Source: a virus (Duplodnaviria; Caudoviricetes). From it: DNA of 64,000 bases. Under the pieces are notes generated by a model. The model was not told the origin of the DNA, made no database searches, and saw only the letters and a list, made by a program, of their open reading frames with translations. The stretch is from IMG/VR virus record IMGVR_UViG_3300032038_000041, positions 1 through 64,000 of that record. One strand, written 5' to 3'. Below, in pieces: positions 16,004 through 59,144 of the stretch. Position numbers and translations under genes: made by a program. Within the stretch, counting starts at the first letter, position 1, and each line of letters begins with the position of its first letter.

Positions 16004-17317
16004 TTAGTTCTTTTCTTTTTTAAGCTCATTAAAAGTATAACCAAGTGAATTATAAAACTTTCGAACTTTTCTAAGAGAGTTTAGGTCGATATTTAATTTT
16101 TCCGCAACATTATTCCATGTAGTCAGAGAATTATATAAATTTTGTAAATATTCCGGAGAAATTATTTCATTATTATCTTTTCTAAAAAATATCGGATCAA
16201 GTTTTGTTTTAACAGTTTTTCCAGACGAGTTCAATACTTCAACCTCTGTTTTAATAGAATTAGATCTAATTCTATTAGATTCGATTATAGTATTCAATTG
16301 TTCCTGAGAAAATACTCTCCCCTTTCTCCAACCTTCTGGAATTTTATCATTATAAATTTTTTTATTTTCTATTCCATTGGTTATCCAGGCACTTCCATAA
16401 GATCCATTTCTCTCTCCAGTCTTTTTAGCAATAGTTTCTATAGATTGTTTCTTCCCATTCGTTATTCCGATAAATTTTCCAGAAACATATCGTGGGTCAT
16501 CAATATCCATACACACAGCCTTTTTCTCTGGATCATTTTTGTCAAAAACTACTACTTTTCCTTTTGTTGAAGAATATCCTACACTTATATATTTTATATT
16601 TTTATACCGCTTATACTCTTCTTGTGAAACTGTTATTATTTTATTCGTAACAGTTCCATTTTCTATTAAATATACACAAACTTTTCCTGTACTTGCTGTT
16701 TCGTACTTATCTTTATTTTGGTGATACTCCTCTTGGGTTACTATAAACCAATTACTTTCTTTAATATTCCCTTTTAATTTTACGACTACATTTTGTTCTG
16801 TGGTAGTTTTATAAATTTCTTGATTATTATAATACTCTTCCTTCTCTATTAGAAATGCTTTAGAAGTTGGATCATCTTTTAAGAAAACACAAACTTTCCC
16901 TAAAGGACTATCTCCTCCTCCAACAACTCGATTATAGCATTTAGGATCTTTTACTAGGTCTATAGTTACTATTTCGGCTTCTTTTTTACGAATCTCCTGC
17001 CTAGTATTGAGAATTACAACTATTTCTTTAGTAAAATTTTCAATACCTTCTTCCTTAATTGCTTCTCGTATACCTGTTCCGGATCCCCAGTAACCATCAT
17101 TTATTGGCTCCTTCTTAAGCGATTTTGGGATAGAGTGAATACCGTAGTAAAACATTTTATTTACTTTATTAGTAATTTTATAAACATAGTGAATATATTC
17201 TGGATTATGAATTTCCCACCACTCATCTGGTTTTTCATGACAATCCAATGAATTACTCACTCGAGAATCTAGATTAGGTTGATTGTTAGTTTTTGAAATT
17301 AAATTATTTTCCTTCAT
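16004..17317 (-). CDS. Free-standing GIY-YIG (Seg-like) homing endonuclease
   Basis: HYVYKITN..N.MFYYGIH, YWGSG, ENF.KEI, CYN; repeated GKVCV C-terminal modules. Confidence 0.85.
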   Translation of the reverse strand: MKENNLISKTNNQPNLDSRVSNSLDCHEKPDEWWEIHNPEYIHYVYKITNKVNKMFYYGIHSIPKSLKKEPINDGYWGSGTGIREAIKEEGIENFTKEIVVILNTRQEIRKKEAEIVTIDLVKDPKCYNRVVGGGDSPLGKVCVFLKDDPTSKAFLIEKEEYYNNQEIYKTTTEQNVVVKLKGNIKESNWFIVTQEEYHQNKDKYETASTGKVCVYLIENGTVTNKIITVSQEEYKRYKNIKYISVGYSSTKGKVVVFDKNDPEKKAVCMDIDDPRYVSGKFIGITNGKKQSIETIAKKTGERNGSYGSAWITNGIENKKIYNDKIPEGWRKGRVFSQEQLNTIIESNRIRSNSIKTEVEVLNSSGKTVKTKLDPIFFRKDNNEIISPEYLQNLYNSLTTWNNVAEKLNIDLNSLRKVRKFYNSLGYTFNELKKEKN

Positions 17318-19304: not shown

Positions 19305-20966
19305 TTAATTTTCAAGATTAATAATTTTGTCTACTTCCTCTGTATAATCATCCTTATTAATGTTTATATTAAGCGTAATTCCATAAGCTTTCTTTTTAAC
19401 TACTGGATCATCAGGATCAATATCATCAGAATCAGGAGAGCCATTACCTAAGCCATTAATATTAATAGTATATCTATAAATTTTTCCTTCTGCCCATTGA
19501 CAATATTCTGATGGGATATATGCTCTAGCATCATATATAGTAGTTCCTCTATATATAAAACTAAACTTAACAGTAAGCCCTATCCCTTGTGTGGTTACTG
19601 GTAACATGTACCAAACTGTAGGACATTGATATGCTGTATTAGCTGAAAAGATTTCTCCGGGAGCAGTAAAAGAAATAGATTGTTCTGTCTTTGTAGAAAT
19701 ATAATTGATTGTAGAAGGAGTAATAGTAACAGTCTCTTTTGTATTATAAGAAGACCAAATAGCATCAGTTCCATCTTCCTTAACTGACGTTGCCGGTAAT
19801 ACTCTCACACCCTCAATCCCTGGGGTAGCAGGAGTTTCTATATTCCTAATCTCTTTATACAAATATCCAGTTTTATTACTAGGTCCACTAAATGCAATTA
19901 TATAATAAAGCCTTCCATTTTTCTTCCAAATATGAACTACATGAAAATTATCATCCGTTTTTGCATAAGTATAGGGAACATGATTTTGTTCGATAGTGAT
20001 TCCCTTATCTACTAAAATTTGTGCAAAAACATCACCCTGGACAGTTTCTCCTTGGTATTGACACCAGATTTCATACGGATGAACTGCTGAACCTTGTACA
20101 TATCCAGTAGATTCATTAGAAAAAGCTTCTTCAACATCAATCTCTTGGGTACCTTCAGCATCTTTATAAAATTTAAACTTGCTATTAAATTTAGCAATCT
20201 CAGCATCAGTAAAATATGATTCTACTCCAGCACTAAACTGATAGTTTCCATAAATTATTGGCTGAATATGCCAAACTTCTTCTTGCTTAGAGCTTGCTGG
20301 TGTAGCTGGTTTGAAATCTATAATCTTAGTACCTGCTTTATCGCTCTTAAAGTTTAGATAAATCTTAGAATTTCCATGTTTAAAATTAAGTGTAGCTCCT
20401 AATGGATAATTTGCTTTAGGAACAGTTGTTTGACAATAAAGAAATTCTTTTGGAGTATCTTCATAACCGTCATTATCAGTAGAAAATGCTTCAACACCTT
20501 CAACAGTAACTACACCCTTGGATAAAGAATGTGTAGTATTAATATTATTAAAAGATGCATAAGATTTCTCTGGAACTACGCCAATAAAATGATACTTACT
20601 AGCTTTATTACTAAACCAACAAGTATCTTGATCTTCACTAACATAAGACCATCCAGAAGTTCTCCACTTTACTAAGTAAGGATTCATAACTTCATCTCCT
20701 AAGTCATTCCAGCAATAAATGCTTAGGTCATCATAGCCTGTTCCTGAAACCGAATTCGAAACAGCTCTTTTTGCTAAACTGCGACCTTTAGTGGCATTAG
20801 AATAATCACTAAACGTAACTGCATACTCACCATTGGCATTTTGTGTTCCTGGATAAATATACCCACCATAAGAAGGGGTAGGTAATGTAATAACAATATC
20901 ATTTTCATTACTACATCCAGAAAAAATCAAAATACCAAAAATAAATGTTAATAATTTTCTCATCAT
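19305..20966 (-). CDS. Fimbrillin/Mfa-like lipoprotein
   Basis: Lipobox FSGC; LNFKHGNSKI and WAEGKIYRYTINI, typical of Bacteroidales fimbrillins. Confidence 0.65.
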   Translation of the reverse strand: MMRKLLTFIFGILIFSGCSNENDIVITLPTPSYGGYIYPGTQNANGEYAVTFSDYSNATKGRSLAKRAVSNSVSGTGYDDLSIYCWNDLGDEVMNPYLVKWRTSGWSYVSEDQDTCWFSNKASKYHFIGVVPEKSYASFNNINTTHSLSKGVVTVEGVEAFSTDNDGYEDTPKEFLYCQTTVPKANYPLGATLNFKHGNSKIYLNFKSDKAGTKIIDFKPATPASSKQEEVWHIQPIIYGNYQFSAGVESYFTDAEIAKFNSKFKFYKDAEGTQEIDVEEAFSNESTGYVQGSAVHPYEIWCQYQGETVQGDVFAQILVDKGITIEQNHVPYTYAKTDDNFHVVHIWKKNGRLYYIIAFSGPSNKTGYLYKEIRNIETPATPGIEGVRVLPATSVKEDGTDAIWSSYNTKETVTITPSTINYISTKTEQSISFTAPGEIFSANTAYQCPTVWYMLPVTTQGIGLTVKFSFIYRGTTIYDARAYIPSEYCQWAEGKIYRYTININGLGNGSPDSDDIDPDDPVVKKKAYGITLNININKDDYTEEVDKIINLEN

Positions 20967-21037
20967 ACGACACTATAAAATTAAAATTACCAAATAAAAT
21001 TAGAAAGACATTCTTATATGTCTTCCATTTTCTTACG

Positions 21038-21109
21038 TGATCCTAGAGGAACTCGAATCCCCACAAATTGGTTTTAGAGACCAACGCATTACCTTTCTGC
21101 CATAGGACC
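21038..21109 (-). tRNA. Amber suppressor tRNA (CTA)
   Basis: GGTCCTA/TAGGATC; TTGGT-CTCTAAA-ACCAA; GGGGA-TTCGAGT-TCCTC; own promoter motif at 21119-21131. Confidence 0.9.
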
Positions 21110-21151: not shown

Positions 21152-21442
21152 TCACAAAGATACCAACTTTAAGTGTTTAAATAATTTTTCATTTCCTAAG
21201 ATAGCCAAAGCTGTTGTTTGTCCTCCTAAATCAGGCTCTTGAAATGATGTGTAATCAATCCCAAGATTCCCGAGTTTATAAGACCATTTTTCAACATTAC
21301 CTTTTAGATAGATAAGATAATTATTATTCCACTGTTGTTCTGGATGATCGAGTAACCATTGAGCTACTACATGACCCCCTTGAACACAGCTATAGATTGG
21401 CTCTAATGTATCACTGACTATTACATATAATCTACTATCCAT
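21152..21442 (-). CDS. Pth2-like (PTH2/PTRHD1 fold) peptidyl-tRNA hydrolase
   Basis: LYVIV..L....VQGGH, FQEPDLGGQTTALA. Confidence 0.65.
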   Translation of the reverse strand: MDSRLYVIVSDTLEPIYSCVQGGHVVAQWLLDHPEQQWNNNYLIYLKGNVEKWSYKLGNLGIDYTSFQEPDLGGQTTALAILGNEKLFKHLKLVSL

Positions 21443-21444
21443 TA

Positions 21445-21942
21445 TTACCATCTTTTAAATATAAGTTCAAGATTTCCGTTAAAATAAGACTTGTAAGATT
21501 TGATCCAATACATAGCCTCATACCAAAGTCTAGTTTCTTCGAAAATATAATCGTCAGGTAATGATTCATCTAAGATATTACTTTTATAGTACTTACACTG
21601 ATTTGGCCTCTTATAAGTTTCACTAAAATAAGCTTTCATTTCTTCAGAGGTTTTAAAATCAAAGCTCCTGGTATGAGTCTTATAATAACACTCTAATAAA
21701 TAATCCTCGAAACTATGAATTCCTCGATTTTCCCAATAGAGTTTTGAGTGTCTCACCCATCTGTACAAAGTGTATAATTTGTCTAACTCTGATGAACGAT
21801 TTTTAATCTCTTCACAAAGTTTCCAATCATCACCATGACCTTTTCTTGCTTTCTTACCATCTTTTTGAGCTTGTGCCTTAATCTGAATTCTATCATAGAT
21901 TTTGGCTGCTATCTCTTTCATAAGTTTAATGTTCGTCTCCAT
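21445..21942 (-). CDS. Hypothetical protein (probable start METNIK)
   Basis: ORF track 21445..22059; ATG at 21942 follows an AT-rich leader. Confidence 0.6.
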   Translation of the reverse strand: METNIKLMKEIAAKIYDRIQIKAQAQKDGKKARKGHGDDWKLCEEIKNRSSELDKLYTLYRWVRHSKLYWENRGIHSFEDYLLECYYKTHTRSFDFKTSEEMKAYFSETYKRPNQCKYYKSNILDESLPDDYIFEETRLWYEAMYWIKSYKSYFNGNLELIFKRW

Positions 21943-22004
21943 AATAGTTAATAATATTTTAATGTTATACCAATTCATATTCGTTGTCGCGTCTGAGTTG
22001 GATA

Positions 22005-22049
22005 TTAACTTGGAGCTCGAACTCGGAACTACCACTTCTGTTTCTTCAT
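22005..22049 (-). other. Candidate leader mini-ORF MKKQKW(TAG)FRVRAPS
   Basis: ATG overlaps TGA of upstream gene (ATGA); internal TAG at 22029-22031; ends TAA. Confidence 0.45.
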
Positions 22050-22663
22050 TGTTTACCAAATTTTAAACTGTTAGTATCAAGTCCAAGCGATCTACGTTTT
22101 GTTTGTATAATTGCTTTTACTTGAGCTGGAATGTAATTATAAAGTAAGATAACCTTACGACACTCTTCTTGATATTCTTTCCAATTATCGCAAGTAATCT
22201 GATCTTTATAATCTAAATTTTCAATTGAACGATCCGCAATCTTCCTGTCTGAACAATATTGTTTTTTATTTACGTCACCTATAAGATTCCGCTTTCCTAA
22301 AACAAATCTTGTAACAGAGTTTGGATCATTCTCCGTAAACTTAAAATTAAGTGCTGAATTAAGAGCAATATACATATTAGTATATTTTCTCGTTTGCTTG
22401 AAAAAACGCCAAGGTTCAATAAATGTAGTAGTTAAAATCTTAGATTTATATCTAGTATTTTTCATACTATCAACATCTCTGAATAATGGCATAACTTCTT
22501 CAATGAGTTTGTTCATGTCGGAAATAACTGCTTTTACAACACGTTCATCTTTAAGTTCACATAGTAATTCTTCAAATCGATCAATGCAGGATGACTGCTC
22601 TGCATTCTTCCTAATAACTGTCATTAACGATCTGACAGATTCTTGATTTACTAAATTTGACAT
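22046..22663 (-). CDS. Hypothetical protein
   Basis: 205 aa ORF. Confidence 0.65.
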   Translation of the reverse strand: MSNLVNQESVRSLMTVIRKNAEQSSCIDRFEELLCELKDERVVKAVISDMNKLIEEVMPLFRDVDSMKNTRYKSKILTTTFIEPWRFFKQTRKYTNMYIALNSALNFKFTENDPNSVTRFVLGKRNLIGDVNKKQYCSDRKIADRSIENLDYKDQITCDNWKEYQEECRKVILLYNYIPAQVKAIIQTKRRSLGLDTNSLKFGKQ

Positions 22664-42256: not shown

Positions 42257-42502
42257 ATGAAGCAGAAATATATCGTAGTAGATGATGAGAGTAATGAATC
42301 ATTTCCTATCGATTGGACAAAATTACCAGAGGATATTATAGATGATATTCCTGGTAAATGTCTTTATAATGTATTGTCGTGTAAGTCAGATGGAAGTATT
42401 ATAGAGAGAACTGTTATATTCTTACGTCCTGTAGGAAAGTTTTCAAGAGGTACAAAAAAATATGACTTAGGAGATATTGTTATAGGTTATGATATACTAT
42501 GA
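42257..42502 (+). CDS. Hypothetical protein
   Basis: 81 aa in operon. Confidence 0.55.
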   Translation: MKQKYIVVDDESNESFPIDWTKLPEDIIDDIPGKCLYNVLSCKSDGSIIERTVIFLRPVGKFSRGTKKYDLGDIVIGYDIL

Positions 42503-55985: not shown

Positions 55986-58900
55986 ATGTCAAATTTTAAT
56001 CAGTATTTCAAGAACACGGGAGCAAAAATTATGGTAGAGCGATTCTTTAAAGGAATCGATATGTATAATCCAAAAAACAAACTGAAAAATCTAAAGTGGT
56101 ATATTGAGCCCGAGCCAAGTCAGCCAGCATCTTATTATGTTGAGAATGAATTGACAGCTACTCACAAAGTACATATAGATTATACAGTTAATGATGGACC
56201 AGAAATTCTTAGCTCTGAATTTGAAGTTCCTAGAGAAATTGATGGTGTATTTATCATTGAAGGAGCTTATAGAATTGCTACGAATACGCTTGGTTCGGAT
56301 TATGATTGTCGAATTCAAATGTCGGGAACTAATCCTTGGAAAATTAATTTCGACTATAATCGCCAATATGATATTGCTAAGAAAGTTCTAAGAATTAAGA
56401 AGATTAATCCAGATCTCGGTGTTCAAGAAAAAGTAAAAGAGTATAATCTTGATGAGATTGATAATATAAAAGGAGAAGACTTAGAAGCATTACGGCTTAC
56501 TGAAAGACAGCAGAAAAAGTTTCAAATTAAGCTTGATATTGATTATAAGCCTGAATTTATTACTAGAAAACTCATCGAAGACTGCTTAGCCTACGGGGAT
56601 GATAGACTTAAAGACTTGATCATTGATAAAAATATTGAGTCAGTTCCACAAGGGTTTATTAACTTCCTATTCAAAAGTGGTAAAGGAAGAAATTTCTTTG
56701 CAGCTAGACGAAAAATAACCTCTTACTGGACAAAATTTAGTAAGCTGCCTGATCCTGCTAACTCTATAACTCTTTTATGTCAAAAACATTGGAAAGGATC
56801 TTCAGAAAGTGCTAAAGGAGGTAGTGAAATTCAAGTTCCACCTGGTATTAATTCACAGAATTTAAGTTCACTTGGGGAAAAGATTATGATACCTGACTCG
56901 GTTGCATATAATACATCATTTGCAGACTTAATTGATATTGCAGATACACCTATTAACCAATCGAGTAACCGTATTAATGCACTTACTGTTTCTACTCACT
57001 TAACAGATGATAAAATTCTTTTTGATTGTTATTCCAAAGACTTCAAGAAGATTACAATTGATTATCTTGACTACCTTAACTCAAAAATAGTAACAAGTGA
57101 GTATGTAGACTATGATGCTAGAGAGATTAAGCCAAATAAAGATGGACAAATCGAAATTAAGCATCGAATGAAAAGAAAGATGGTATCAGCAACAGATTAT
57201 GATTTTGTTGACTTACCACCTGATTATCGACTCTCTTCAACAACACGACGAATTCCATTTTTAAACTTTACAGATAGTGTAAGAATTGAGATGGGAAGCG
57301 GTATGTTAAAACAAGCAATACCTTTGCCAAATGCAGAAAGACCACTTGTTGACACCGGAAATGTTGAAGAGTTAGAAAATAATATTCTAAATGAAAAATT
57401 TAGACTTCCTGAGGGAACTGTAAAAGAAATCAATGACGAAGAAGTTCTTATTCAACTCCCAGGAAATGATGAGATTAGTGTTCCTAGACGTACAGCAATA
57501 CAAAGCGCTAATGATGTTGATATCTTTACTGAGCCTAAAGTTAAGGTTGGACAGAAAGTTAAGGAAGGTGATATTATTACTGGTGCTGTAGGCGTAGAGA
57601 AAGATACATATAAAACTGGAATTAATGCATTGGTCTTGTTCCATGCAATGTTTGGTTATGTAAATGAGGATGCTGTTGTAGTATCAGAATCATTTGCTAA
57701 TAAAATGTGTCACTATTCACTTATTGACTTAACTATGGATGTTAAAAATTCAGAAGCTATTAAGTGGATTGCACCAATAGGAACTCGTGTAAAATCAAAA
57801 GATAGAGTAATGACTGTATATAAAGCAGTAAGACTTGATGAGATTAATAAGAAACTTCAAGAACAACTTGGAGGAATTCTTGGAAACCTTGATCAGTATA
57901 CTGTAGAGACAGGATTATCTGTTCCGAATAATATAGATGAAGCAGTTGTTACTGATGTTATAATTCAGGAAAATAAGAAGCCAAGGATCCCTAAATCAAT
58001 AAAAAAGCCGGATTATTCGTTTGCTAAAACAAGTCAAACTGTAATTGATGACTATGAAAAAACAAAGGATCGTAAGCCAATATATGATAAATATCCTGAA
58101 TATATAGCATCTGATACTCTGGATCCCGTAAATCTAAAGGATAAAAATTATAAAGTTGTCTATACCGTTAGAATCCGACTAATTAAGAGAACTACTTTAA
58201 TGTTAGGTTCAAAAGTTACAAACCGCTATGGTGGTAAGGGTGTTATATCAAAAATCTTACCAGACAACTTAATGCCAATAATGGTAGATAAACAGGGGAA
58301 TAAGAAGGTTATAGATATTGTAATGAATCCATATTCAACAATCAATAGAAAGATACCATCGGTTCTCCTAGAAAACTCCCTAGGATTAATCATTCATCGT
58401 TTACGGGACATGGTGGAGGAGTATAAGGGAACTAAGACAGGTCAAAAGAAAATTAAACCTCTCTTAATGAAGTACTATCCAGGCCGCTTTGATAATATGA
58501 CAGTTGAGGAAATCATACAAATGCATAATTCTAGCAGAATAGAAGAAATGTATTATATGAATGTTGGATGTTATTCGACAAAATTTACTCCTGATCTTGT
58601 TACAAAATGGATGGAAGAACTTGGTGTAGAACCTCAATCCAAGATCCTAATGCCACAAACTGAAATTGCTGATCTTAAAGAACTTAAGGAAACCCTAAGT
58701 GAAGAAGAATATCAAAAGGCAGTTTCAAAAATGACTGGAAAGTTTGTAGAAGTAGATAAACCATTGATGTGTGGTTATATAACATTCTTAGAGCTTTTCA
58801 AGATCCCATATTATGATGAAAAAGCAACGTCTAGTATGTTTCTGCCAGATGGAGATATTAATCCATTTAAGGACTCGCCAATTATGTCCCATGGTAAATA

Positions 58901-59144
58901 TAGAACAACTGGACAAAAGATCGGTGAGATGGAGTTAACTGCTTACTTAGCCCGTGGAGCAAAACAGTTTATTGAGTACTCTCGTAGTGATACATCTACA
59001 CAAGATTCTATTGAATTTATGAATAACCTTCTTGGACTTGGTGTAACAATCAAGAATGAAGAGGGATATAATATGGGAGCATCAAGTCTTAGAAATAGTC
59101 TTGGTGAAATGAAGGTTAAATTTAGACTCAAAAATAAAAAGTAA
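55986..59144 (+). CDS. rpoB: RNA polymerase beta subunit
   Basis: GVFIIEG, IPFL..TD..R..MGS.M.KQA, GYVNEDA, GSKVTNRYGGKGVIS, IVMNP, GQKIGEME. Confidence 0.92.
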   Translation: MSNFNQYFKNTGAKIMVERFFKGIDMYNPKNKLKNLKWYIEPEPSQPASYYVENELTATHKVHIDYTVNDGPEILSSEFEVPREIDGVFIIEGAYRIATNTLGSDYDCRIQMSGTNPWKINFDYNRQYDIAKKVLRIKKINPDLGVQEKVKEYNLDEIDNIKGEDLEALRLTERQQKKFQIKLDIDYKPEFITRKLIEDCLAYGDDRLKDLIIDKNIESVPQGFINFLFKSGKGRNFFAARRKITSYWTKFSKLPDPANSITLLCQKHWKGSSESAKGGSEIQVPPGINSQNLSSLGEKIMIPDSVAYNTSFADLIDIADTPINQSSNRINALTVSTHLTDDKILFDCYSKDFKKITIDYLDYLNSKIVTSEYVDYDAREIKPNKDGQIEIKHRMKRKMVSATDYDFVDLPPDYRLSSTTRRIPFLNFTDSVRIEMGSGMLKQAIPLPNAERPLVDTGNVEELENNILNEKFRLPEGTVKEINDEEVLIQLPGNDEISVPRRTAIQSANDVDIFTEPKVKVGQKVKEGDIITGAVGVEKDTYKTGINALVLFHAMFGYVNEDAVVVSESFANKMCHYSLIDLTMDVKNSEAIKWIAPIGTRVKSKDRVMTVYKAVRLDEINKKLQEQLGGILGNLDQYTVETGLSVPNNIDEAVVTDVIIQENKKPRIPKSIKKPDYSFAKTSQTVIDDYEKTKDRKPIYDKYPEYIASDTLDPVNLKDKNYKVVYTVRIRLIKRTTLMLGSKVTNRYGGKGVISKILPDNLMPIMVDKQGNKKVIDIVMNPYSTINRKIPSVLLENSLGLIIHRLRDMVEEYKGTKTGQKKIKPLLMKYYPGRFDNMTVEEIIQMHNSSRIEEMYYMNVGCYSTKFTPDLVTKWMEELGVEPQSKILMPQTEIADLKELKETLSEEEYQKAVSKMTGKFVEVDKPLMCGYITFLELFKIPYYDEKATSSMFLPDGDINPFKDSPIMSHGKYRTTGQKIGEMELTAYLARGAKQFIEYSRSDTSTQDSIEFMNNLLGLGVTIKNEEGYNMGASSLRNSLGEMKVKFRLKNKK

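What the first reader, a model, noticed from the sequence alone, without database searches (positions are those of the whole stretch)
21152..22049. TAG-interrupted RAP-motif leader upstream of a Pth2-like gene and the suppressor tRNA
Seen: ATG AAG AAA CAG AAG TGG TAG TTC CGA GTT CGA GCT CCA AGT TAA, coupled by ATGA to the upstream gene and ending about 60 nt before a two-gene unit (hypothetical plus Pth2-like), which is followed by the CUA tRNA. Established: RAGP/RAPP C-terminal motifs (SecM, ApdA, ApdP) stall ribosomes. Inference: only amber read-through yields the RAPS peptide, so the leader could sense suppression or release-factor activity and control the peptidyl-tRNA hydrolase unit. This would be an undescribed feedback circuit.
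Basis: partly seen in the sequence, partly recalled or inferred. Interest (0 to 1): 0.8.

Follow-up and report, generated by a model that had tools for sequence, protein, structure and literature searches.

The report
Stop-codon-gated leader before phage tRNA-hydrolase operon
A 14-codon leader with a built-in UAG stop sits before two phage genes and the phage's own UAG-reading tRNA, and comparison with dozens of related giant phages suggests those genes are translated only when that tRNA overrides the stop, a natural switch I could not find described in any paper.

Summary
On the minus strand a mini-ORF (22049..22005) reads MKKQKW-TAG-FRVRAPS-TAA. It is followed by a 165-aa gene, a 99-aa gene with a PTH2 fold, and a tRNA(CUA).

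I first took it for chance, but it is one member of a large family. In 80 loci fetched only by similarity to the PTH2-like protein, 45 of 57 distinct upstream regions hold such a leader, against 0 of 57 on the reverse complement. The leader is ATG, 1-11 codons, an in-frame stop, then 5-9 in-frame codons ending in R-[GAS]-P or Pro-Pro-stop.

- About 70 of the 80 loci have a suppressor tRNA after the hydrolase-like gene.
- All four leaders with TGA go with tRNA(UCA). All TAG leaders with a suppressor in reach go with tRNA(CUA).
- The codons after the stop pair with the start region of the next gene, in the window 22022..22003 with 21953..21931. This is specific to each lineage (permutation p<5e-5).

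Best reading: a translational attenuator gated by read-through. The stalling role of RAPS is plausible but unproven; one natural variant replaces its Arg codon with TGA and keeps the helix. Nothing was shown experimentally. Earlier AI notes of this scan describe the same module on other phage DNA. I found no paper on it.

The parts
22005..22049 (-). Leader mini-ORF: MKKQKW, TAG, FRVRAPS, TAA (14 sense codons if TAG is read).
   Evidence: It belongs to a leader family found in 45 of 57 distinct loci.
22029..22031 (-). In-frame TAG (codon 7), the proposed gate.
   Evidence: It is unchanged in all near-identical variants. The stop is always kept as a stop in relatives, and its type matches the neighbouring suppressor anticodon.
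22008..22019 (-). Codons R-A-P-S, an arrest-like motif that is also part of the helix.
   Evidence: Relatives have R-[GAS]-P or PP-stop in the same frame. The motif rules come from PMC7897499 and PMC12992588. One variant reads CGA as TGA.
22003..22022 (-). 5' strand of the sequestering helix (GUUCG / CUCCA / AGUUAAUA).
   Evidence: MFE and centroid fold. Duplex of -18.4 kcal/mol, the best of 45 start regions tried.
21931..21953 (-). 3' strand of the helix. It covers the U and G of the partner start codon (21942..21940) and the first four codons.
21445..21942 (-). Partner gene, 165 aa, function unknown. It is a divergent member of the family that always precedes the PTH2-like gene.
   Evidence: The start is set by the helix, by homology of the start region with L013, and by gene callers. 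Family motifs are shared with L061 and L116. No Pfam hit.
21152..21451 (-). PTH2-fold gene, 99 aa. Its ATG overlaps the partner's stop (ATGGTAA).
   Evidence: AlphaFold2 pLDDT 92. All top Foldseek hits are PTH2 proteins, TM about 0.65. PHROG 3668 'hydrolase' at 2e-6.
21037..21109 (-). Suppressor tRNA, anticodon CUA, 73 nt.
   Evidence: ARAGORN. Rfam tRNA 61.9 bits. A suppressor in the same position occurs in about 70 of 80 relatives.
21003..21026 (-). Terminator-like hairpin plus T-run just after the tRNA.
   Evidence: RNA-library contigs end at 21037, 21046 and 21101 (weak hint only).
22046..22663 (-). Upstream 205-aa gene (context). Its stop overlaps the leader ATG.
   Evidence: In the 79% relative the gene runs 8 codons further, across the leader ATG, in another frame.

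Best explanation
This is a translational attenuator gated by stop-codon read-through.

The RNA that carries the leader, the 165-aa partner gene, the PTH2-fold gene and tRNA(CUA) folds so that leader codons 10-15 (22022..22003) pair with the partner's start region (21953..21931) and hide its AUG.

- A ribosome that starts at the leader AUG and is released at UAG (codon 7) reaches only the outer 5 base pairs, so the start stays hidden.
- If the phage tRNA(CUA) reads the UAG, the ribosome runs on over F-R-V-R-A-P-S-stop and melts the whole 5' strand. It perhaps lingers there because R-A-P resembles known arrest motifs. The partner start is then free.
- The PTH2-like gene follows by coupling, because its start overlaps the partner's stop.

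The two proteins would thus be made only while nonsense suppression is active.

Shown, by computation only: the anatomy, the conservation, the match of stop to anticodon, the kept frame and the lineage-specific pairing.
Inferred: translation of the leader, read-through, unmasking, and any stalling.
Unknown: what the two proteins do. My guess is that they handle peptidyl- or aminoacyl-tRNA that arises from, or belongs to, the suppressor.
For: (1) Family. 80 loci were fetched only by similarity to the PTH2-like protein. Of 57 distinct upstream regions, 45 hold ATG, 1-11 codons, TAG or TGA, then R[GAS]P / RG[ST]P / PP-stop / [SD]P-stop. The reverse complements give 0 of 57 and shuffles 0.1.

(2) tRNA link. 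About 70 of the 80 loci have a suppressor tRNA after the PTH2-like gene. The four TGA leaders (L053, L054, L056, L131) all have tRNA(UCA). All TAG leaders with a suppressor in the flank have tRNA(CUA). Five of the more distant loci (L125-L130) have no leader, and none of them has a suppressor after the PTH2-like gene.

(3) Frame. The distance from the internal stop to the final stop is 5, 6, 7, 8 or 9 codons, always in frame. CC dinucleotides in the 36 nt after the stop fall 44 / 6 / 9 by codon phase. Pro codons use all four third bases.

(4) Pairing.
- Window fold.
- The duplex of the post-stop 45 nt with the lineage's own start region averages -17.8 kcal/mol over 26 lineages. Other lineages' start regions give about -9 (full 45-locus set). 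Permutation p<5e-5.
- Same-genome controls give -5.2 (pre-stop) and -10.8 (inside the gene).
- The double-TAG class gives -19.3 against -12.1 after its second TAG.

(5) Motif. The middle residues seen, G, A and S, are those that keep arrest in ApdA/ApdP. A-site P, N, S, G and D are among the best arrest-supporting residues for ApcA (PMC12992588, PMC7897499). C-terminal Pro-Pro stalls termination in E. coli (PMC3834316).

(6) Variants. No difference is listed between 21891 and 22018 in three RNA-library contigs (X13, X17, X18); two of them differ at about 2.5% of sites overall.
Against: - No experiment exists. Translation of the leader and read-through are inferred.
- The window's whole-region fold is only mildly better than shuffles (z -1.6).
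- In this lineage the peptide looks loosely constrained. Codon 9 is R, P or L among 98% relatives, and one RNA-library contig has CGA changed to TGA at the Arg of RAPS. That change kills the motif but keeps the pair as G-U.
- The A-site residue is Ser. ApdA, ApdP and SecM need Pro.
- Much of the post-stop sequence conservation could come from RNA pairing alone.
- The statistics are not corrected for shared ancestry, and the four TGA loci may be one clade.
- No in-frame TAG is seen in any long ORF of the 94-kb contig, so there is no independent sign here that TAG is ever read. The contig is only about 25% of the genome.
- An A/T-rich motif precedes both the leader ATG and the partner ATG. If it is a promoter, the partner could be transcribed without the leader.
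Confidence: 0.6

Rival explanations
1. An ordinary upstream ORF plus an RNA helix, without read-through. MKKQKW-stop is the whole leader peptide. The helix controls the partner start for another reason, such as RNA processing next to tRNAs, temperature or a protein. The apparent peptide after the stop is a by-product of complementarity to the purine-rich start region.
For: - Pairing explains much of the conservation.
- A natural variant puts TGA into RAPS while keeping the pair.
- Codon 9 is polymorphic.
- No in-frame TAG occurs elsewhere in the contig.
Against: - The stop type follows the suppressor anticodon.
- The internal stop is never replaced by a sense codon or TAA in 45 leaders.
- Spacing stays in frame through many length changes, and CC falls in codon phase 44/6/9.
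- PP-stop is kept with all third bases, which pairing alone does not require.
Confidence: 0.15
2. The leader acts on transcription or RNA stability rather than on translation initiation. A ribosome held at the end of the leader after read-through would block Rho or an RNase, as in tnaC. That would raise the whole downstream transcript, including the suppressor tRNA, and give a positive feedback switch.
For: - The tRNA lies downstream on the same strand, with a terminator-like hairpin only after it.
- RNA-library contigs span leader to tRNA and end at the tRNA (weak).
- PP-stop and R-x-P ends fit a long pause.
Against: - The lineage-specific pairing is with the start codon region itself, which points to initiation control.
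- No terminator-like site lies between leader and partner.
- Contigs cannot show transcript ends.
Confidence: 0.12
3. A chance ORF in a spacer made of relics: the out-of-frame tail of the upstream gene plus a decayed tRNA T-arm. This was my own first reading.
For: - ATGA-coupled short ORFs occur six times in the contig.
- In the 79% relative the leader ATG lies inside the upstream gene's longer tail.
- A 10-mer matches the T-arm of the tRNA-Glu that follows this gene in distant relatives (shuffle p 0.016).
- There is no Rfam hit and no local structure in the 91-nt piece.
Against: - The same leader design occurs where the upstream gene is absent and in 45 of 57 distinct loci, against 0 of 57 controls.
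- The T-arm match is absent in L013.
- Relics do not explain the pairing with the cognate start or the match of stop to anticodon.
Confidence: 0.04

Closest known systems
Leader-peptide translational attenuation (ermC, cat, SecM-secA, MifM-yidC2)
   Same: A short upstream ORF whose 3' codons form one strand of a helix that hides the next gene's start. A ribosome sitting on those codons frees the start.
   Different: The signal there is a drug or the activity of the secretion machinery acting on a stalled ribosome. Here the signal would be whether a stop codon inside the leader is read by a virus-encoded suppressor tRNA. I know of no natural example of that.
RAPP/RGPP/RAGP arrest peptides (ApdA, ApdP, ApcA, SecM; PMC7897499, PMC10951233, PMC12992588)
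   Same: R-A-P at the end of the nascent chain. Relatives use R-G-P and R-S-P, the substitutions reported as permissive. The A-site residues seen (P, N, S, G, D) are among those that support arrest in ApcA.
   Different: The window has Ser, not Pro, at the A site. The peptide has 14 residues and no signal or membrane segment. The downstream genes are not Sec or YidC components. Stalling is untested, and one natural variant lacks the Arg.
Termination stalling at C-terminal Pro-Pro (YbeL-PP, PMC3834316) and TnaC
   Same: Most relatives' leaders end x-Pro-Pro-stop, a motif that hinders release in E. coli in every context tested.
   Different: The window's leader ends Pro-Ser-stop. The host is probably a rumen Bacteroidota or similar, where this has not been studied.
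prfB (RF2) autoregulation by an in-frame UGA
   Same: An early in-frame stop codon serves as a gauge of how well that stop is terminated.
   Different: prfB escapes by a +1 frameshift within the regulated gene itself. Here the stop is in a separate leader and escape is by a suppressor tRNA.
Phage stop-codon recoding and 'code change modules' (bioRxiv 10.1101/2021.08.26.457843)
   Same: A phage-encoded suppressor tRNA, and the idea that its appearance switches on genes that carry in-frame stops.
   Different: That work describes recoded late and lysis genes, tRNA synthetases and release factors. Its text does not contain the words leader, hydrolase or peptidyl. This contig shows no recoded long ORF.
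Synthetic suppressor-tRNA gates (e.g. PMC7969014)
   Same: Gene expression is made conditional on a suppressor tRNA reading an in-frame amber codon.
   Different: Those are engineered, with the amber codon inside the regulated gene. This is natural, with the codon in a leader that acts through RNA structure.

Membership tests
RAPP/RAGP-type arrest peptides | Arg-(Ala/Gly)-Pro as the last three residues on the P-site tRNA | tested here: met
   Window codons 11-13 are R-A-P. Relatives have RGP, RSP, RAP and RGPP in the same frame.
RAPP/RAGP-type arrest peptides | A-site codon for Pro (ApdA, ApdP, SecM) or Gly (ApcA) | tested here: not met
   The window has AGT (Ser). Ser keeps arrest only in the ApcA context (PMC7897499).
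RAPP/RAGP-type arrest peptides | N-terminal signal or membrane segment, and a downstream Sec or YidC component | tested here: not met
   The peptide has 14 residues. Downstream lie an unknown 165-aa protein and a PTH2-fold protein.
RAPP/RAGP-type arrest peptides | Ribosome stalls at the motif | not testable with these tools
   This needs toeprinting, a reporter or ribosome profiling.
Leader-peptide translational attenuators | Short ORF directly upstream on the same strand | tested here: met
Leader-peptide translational attenuators | Leader codons pair with the start region of the regulated gene | tested here: met
   Cognate duplexes are far stronger than non-cognate ones and than same-genome controls.
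Leader-peptide translational attenuators | Ribosome occupancy of those codons depends on a signal | not testable with these tools
   Inferred from the in-frame stop and its match to the suppressor anticodon.
PTH2 peptidyl-tRNA hydrolases | PTH2 fold | tested here: met
   pLDDT 92. The top Foldseek hits are 3erj, 2zv3, 1xty and 1q7s, with probability 1.00 and TM 0.64-0.68.
PTH2 peptidyl-tRNA hydrolases | Match to the Pfam PTH2 model or to solved PTH2 sequences | tested here: not met
   No Pfam hit for 20 family members. The PDB profile search finds no PTH2.
PTH2 peptidyl-tRNA hydrolases | Catalytic residues and hydrolysis of peptidyl-tRNA | not tested
   Invariant Q-G-G-H and E-P-D...T motifs exist, but I did not map them onto PTH2 active sites.
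Stop-codon-recoded phages (code 15 / code 4) | Phage-encoded suppressor tRNA | tested here: met
Stop-codon-recoded phages (code 15 / code 4) | Many genes with in-frame TAG | tested here: inconclusive
   None is found in long ORFs of the 94 kb, and TAG ends 13 of 106 ORFs. The contig is about 25% complete.
prfB-type autoregulation | Frameshift at the in-frame stop restores the regulated protein's frame | tested here: not met
   The leader is a separate ORF that ends 62 nt before the partner start.

The most novel reading that the evidence does not exclude
The module is a natural gauge of nonsense suppression that closes a loop. The leader reports how well UAG is being read. It then switches on a PTH2-fold enzyme and its partner, which act on the suppressor tRNA or on its peptidyl or aminoacyl forms. 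That would set the level of stop-codon read-through in the infected cell. It would be the control unit by which giant phages, including ones that still use the standard code, handle or evolve a change of genetic code.
Probability: 0.2. Interest if true: 0.9.

Novelty: new variant of a known kind. Interest (0 to 1): 0.8.

Why it matters
Phage suppressor tRNAs are common, also in phages whose genes show no recoding, and what they act on there is an open question. This module gives them a conserved, specific target: a stop codon placed in a leader whose stop type changes together with the tRNA's anticodon.

If the gate works as read, three things follow:
- It is the first natural case I know of in which nonsense suppression is the input of a leader-peptide attenuator.
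- It ties suppression to a tRNA-hydrolase-like enzyme of unknown role.
- It offers a small, portable genetic part that reports read-through.

It can be tested directly with reporter fusions.

Tried and rejected
- blastn of the region against phage GenBank records found no match.
- The 204-aa ORF from TTG 22059 as the true N-terminus is rejected. A 1-nt insertion in four close relatives breaks it.
- ATG 21978 as the partner start is rejected. It is not in frame in the L013 lineage, and it lies in the loop of the helix.
- The decayed tRNA T-arm idea rests on a 10-mer match at p 0.016 in the window. L013 shows nothing and Rfam has no hit. I set it aside.
- The relic of the upstream gene's tail is a true local fact, but it does not explain the family.
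- My regex RA[PG][PS] over 12 loci gave a false negative, because relatives have RSPG, RGPD or PP-stop.
- Folding only 91 nt (z 0.5) missed the helix, because its 3' strand lay outside the piece.
- RNAalifold on ten class-B sequences found no common long-range helix. The pairing register differs between lineages, so I used duplex energies with permutation instead.
- The TAG-rich frame at 42261..42489 is the wrong frame of an ordinary 82-aa ORF.
- The search for recoding through homologues of the 1052-aa protein in five relatives returned split matches with mixed stops and was uninformative.
- No release-factor domain occurs in the contig.
- Rfam has no family for the element in six relatives.
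- The amino-acid identity of the tRNA(CUA) stays unresolved. The nearest non-suppressor is a tRNA-Trp at 71%.
- The RNA-library runs are contigs only. They show that the stretch is present in six metatranscriptome libraries, not transcript ends or levels.

Full report
**What is there.** The window is the first 64 kb of a 94.4-kb linear virus contig. CheckV rates it about 25% complete. It has 33% G+C and carries topoisomerase II, an RNA polymerase beta-like subunit, SbcC and 13 tRNA genes. Relatives are contigs of 120-430 kb. It is a piece of a giant phage. Near-identical DNA occurs in cattle, sheep and goat gut metagenomes.

- ATG 22049, TAG 22031..22029, R-A-P-S at 22019..22008, TAA 22007..22005.
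- The ATG overlaps the TGA of a 205-aa gene.
- Downstream follow a 165-aa gene (ATG 21942), a 99-aa gene (21451..21152), tRNA(CUA) (21109..21037; 61.9 bits) and a terminator-like hairpin (21026..21003).

**First pass: it looked like chance.**
- ATGA overlaps are common here: 13 stop-overlapping cases among the 22 TGA-ended ORFs, 6 of them leading into ORFs of 4-22 codons.
- No long ORF in the 94 kb has an in-frame TAG, and TAG ends 13 of 106 ORFs.
- The 91 nt around the mini-ORF do not fold better than shuffles, and Rfam finds nothing.
- Relatives 97-98% identical keep the mini-ORF but vary the middle base of codon 9 (R, P, L).
- In the next lineage (upstream protein 79% identical) the upstream gene runs eight codons further, in another frame, across the leader ATG.
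- A 10-mer matched the T-arm of a tRNA that follows this gene in distant relatives.
- My motif search RA[PG][PS] found nothing upstream of PTH2-like homologues.

**What changed the reading.** I printed the 150 nt upstream of the gene that precedes the PTH2-like gene in diverged loci. The same design was there with other residues: M, a few basic codons, K-W, TAG, two or three codons, then I-R-S-P-G.

I then fetched 80 IMG/VR loci using only an alignment of the PTH2-like protein, so the sample is blind to the leader. Nearly every lineage has a mini-ORF about 90-130 nt before the partner gene. It consists of ATG, 1-11 codons, an in-frame stop, a codon for V or I, and a short in-frame run. That run ends in one of these ways:
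- x-Pro-Pro-stop (for example MKH-stop-INLIPP-stop);
- R-A-S-P-stop;
- R-G-P-D;
- R-S-P-G or R-S-P-N;
- here, R-A-P-S-stop.

A strict pattern hits 45 of 57 distinct upstream regions. It hits 0 of 57 reverse complements and 0.1 of 57 shuffles. The pattern was written after seeing the data, so the count is descriptive, but the contrast is large.

**Link to the suppressor tRNA.**
- ARAGORN on all loci finds a suppressor tRNA after the PTH2-like gene in about 70 of the 80 loci.
- The four loci whose leader stop is TGA (L053, L054, L056, L131) all have tRNA(UCA). Every TAG leader with a suppressor in the flank has tRNA(CUA).
- Five of the more distant loci (L125-L130) have no leader, and none has a suppressor after the PTH2-like gene. 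Several of them instead carry a TAG inside the PTH2-like gene.
- The TGA loci may be one clade, so this may be a single evolutionary event. Even so, stop and anticodon changed together.

**Is the part after the stop read as codons?**
- The distance from the internal stop to the final stop is 5 to 9 codons in different lineages and is always in frame.
- In the 36 nt after the stop, CC dinucleotides fall 44 / 6 / 9 by phase of the leader frame.
- Pro codons use all four third bases.

This is what a translated frame looks like. An RNA motif with variable spacing would not keep it. The internal stop is never replaced by a sense codon.

**How it could act.** After my own comparison I looked up this scan's earlier notes. 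They describe the same module on other phage DNA and mention a hidden start site. I tested that here.
- The MFE and centroid folds of 22055..21915 pair 22022..22003 (codons V-R-A-P-S-stop) with 21953..21931. That stretch includes the U and G of the partner's AUG and its next four codons.
- Over 26 lineages whose post-stop segments are only 33% alike at the median, the duplex between the 45 nt after the stop and the lineage's own start region averages -17.8 kcal/mol. Other lineages' start regions give about -9 in the full 45-locus set. The sum is -463 against a permuted mean of -250 (sd 16; p<5e-5).
- Same-genome controls give -5.2 for the 45 nt before the stop and -10.8 for a segment inside the gene.
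- The double-TAG class shows the same once the segment after its second TAG is used (-19.3 against -12.1).
- The pairing register differs between lineages, which is why RNAalifold on a plain alignment found nothing.

A ribosome released at the UAG would reach only the outer five pairs. One that reads through would cover the whole 5' strand.

**The stalling idea.**
- Published mutagenesis shows that Arg is irreplaceable in R-A-P. Gly is fully permissive at the middle position, and Ser, Asp and Pro are partly so (PMC12992588).
- Pro is required at the A site of ApdA and ApdP. ApcA tolerates P, C, N, T, S, G, D and A (PMC7897499; PMC10951233).
- The leaders use R-[G/A/S]-P followed by P, D, G, N or S, which fits that set.
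- The other leaders end Pro-Pro-stop, which stalls termination in E. coli in every context tested (PMC3834316).

Against a strict need for the peptide in this lineage: codon 9 is polymorphic, and one RNA-library contig has CGA changed to TGA at the Arg, a change that keeps the base pair as G-U. I therefore rate the read-through gate at about 0.6 and a real arrest function at about 0.4.

**The two proteins.**
- The 99-aa protein has no Pfam or PDB sequence match. It folds with pLDDT 92, and its best structural matches are all PTH2 peptidyl-tRNA hydrolases.
- The 165-aa protein is a divergent member of a very variable family that always precedes it. It has no Pfam match. BLAST against the 89-92-aa forms finds nothing, but it shares motifs with the longer forms of L061 and L116.
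- Their function is unknown. I did not test whether they bind each other.

**Transcription.** Three RNA-library contigs from different studies span the 205-aa gene, the leader, both genes and part or all of the tRNA. They end at 21046, 21101 and exactly 21037, the tRNA's 3' end. Contigs cannot prove transcript ends, and DNA may be present in such libraries, so this is only a weak hint of one transcription unit.

**Literature.** The main preprint on phage stop-codon recoding does not contain the words leader, hydrolase or peptidyl. No paper in the searchable library holds Pth2, phage and suppressor tRNA together, and broader searches gave only synthetic-biology uses. The library lacks most subscription journals, so absence is not proof.

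**Verdict.** It is a new variant of leader-peptide attenuation, with a new kind of input.

Noticed in passing
L099, L119, L121, L122 (PTH2-like gene, about 1501-1790); L109; L061, L064; L125-L130: Some relatives carry in-frame stops inside the PTH2-like gene itself. TGA stands at the invariant Trp position (L099, L119-122), which suggests TGA = Trp there. TAG stands at the conserved Q/K/R before E-P-D (L109), at about codon 6 (L061, L064), and after a Trp in the leaderless distant group (L125-130). The window's gene has none.
   Followed up: partly
window 22046-22663 (-) and L021-L029: The 205-aa gene family always lies inside tRNA arrays. In six distant relatives a tRNA-Glu(CUC) follows it within about 30 nt. 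Its C-terminus differs by a frameshift between close lineages (205 aa against 212-213 aa).
   Followed up: partly
window about 22065-22055 and 21965-21950 (-); same places in relatives: An A/T-rich motif of the type AACA-TTAAAAT-TT lies 12-20 nt before both the leader ATG and the partner ATG in many lineages. It may be a start-site signal or a promoter element of these phages.
   Followed up: no
window 21037-21101 (-): RNA-library contigs from three studies stop at 21046, at 21101 and exactly at 21037, the predicted 3' end of the tRNA(CUA). No difference is listed between 21891 and 22018 in the three contigs that vary elsewhere (X13, X17, X18); two of them differ at about 2.5% of sites overall.
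   Followed up: partly
window 16004-17317 (-): A 437-aa ORF with a homing-endonuclease-like domain (PHROG 314, 3e-26) sits between tRNA genes.
   Followed up: no
window 19305-20966 (-): A 553-aa ORF directly after the suppressor tRNA starts with a lipoprotein-type signal peptide ending in Cys. Relatives have a 592-598-aa ORF with weak DUF4842 / DUF4114 hits near their tRNA arrays.
   Followed up: no
G003 and G004 (records of L052 and L106): Homologues of the window's 1052-aa protein (55986-59144) are split into several pieces with stops between them in two relatives. This may reflect introns, inteins or separate genes.
   Followed up: no
L004-L008, position 1-300: An RtcB RNA ligase gene lies next to the tRNA array and PTH2-like module in several relatives.
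   Followed up: no
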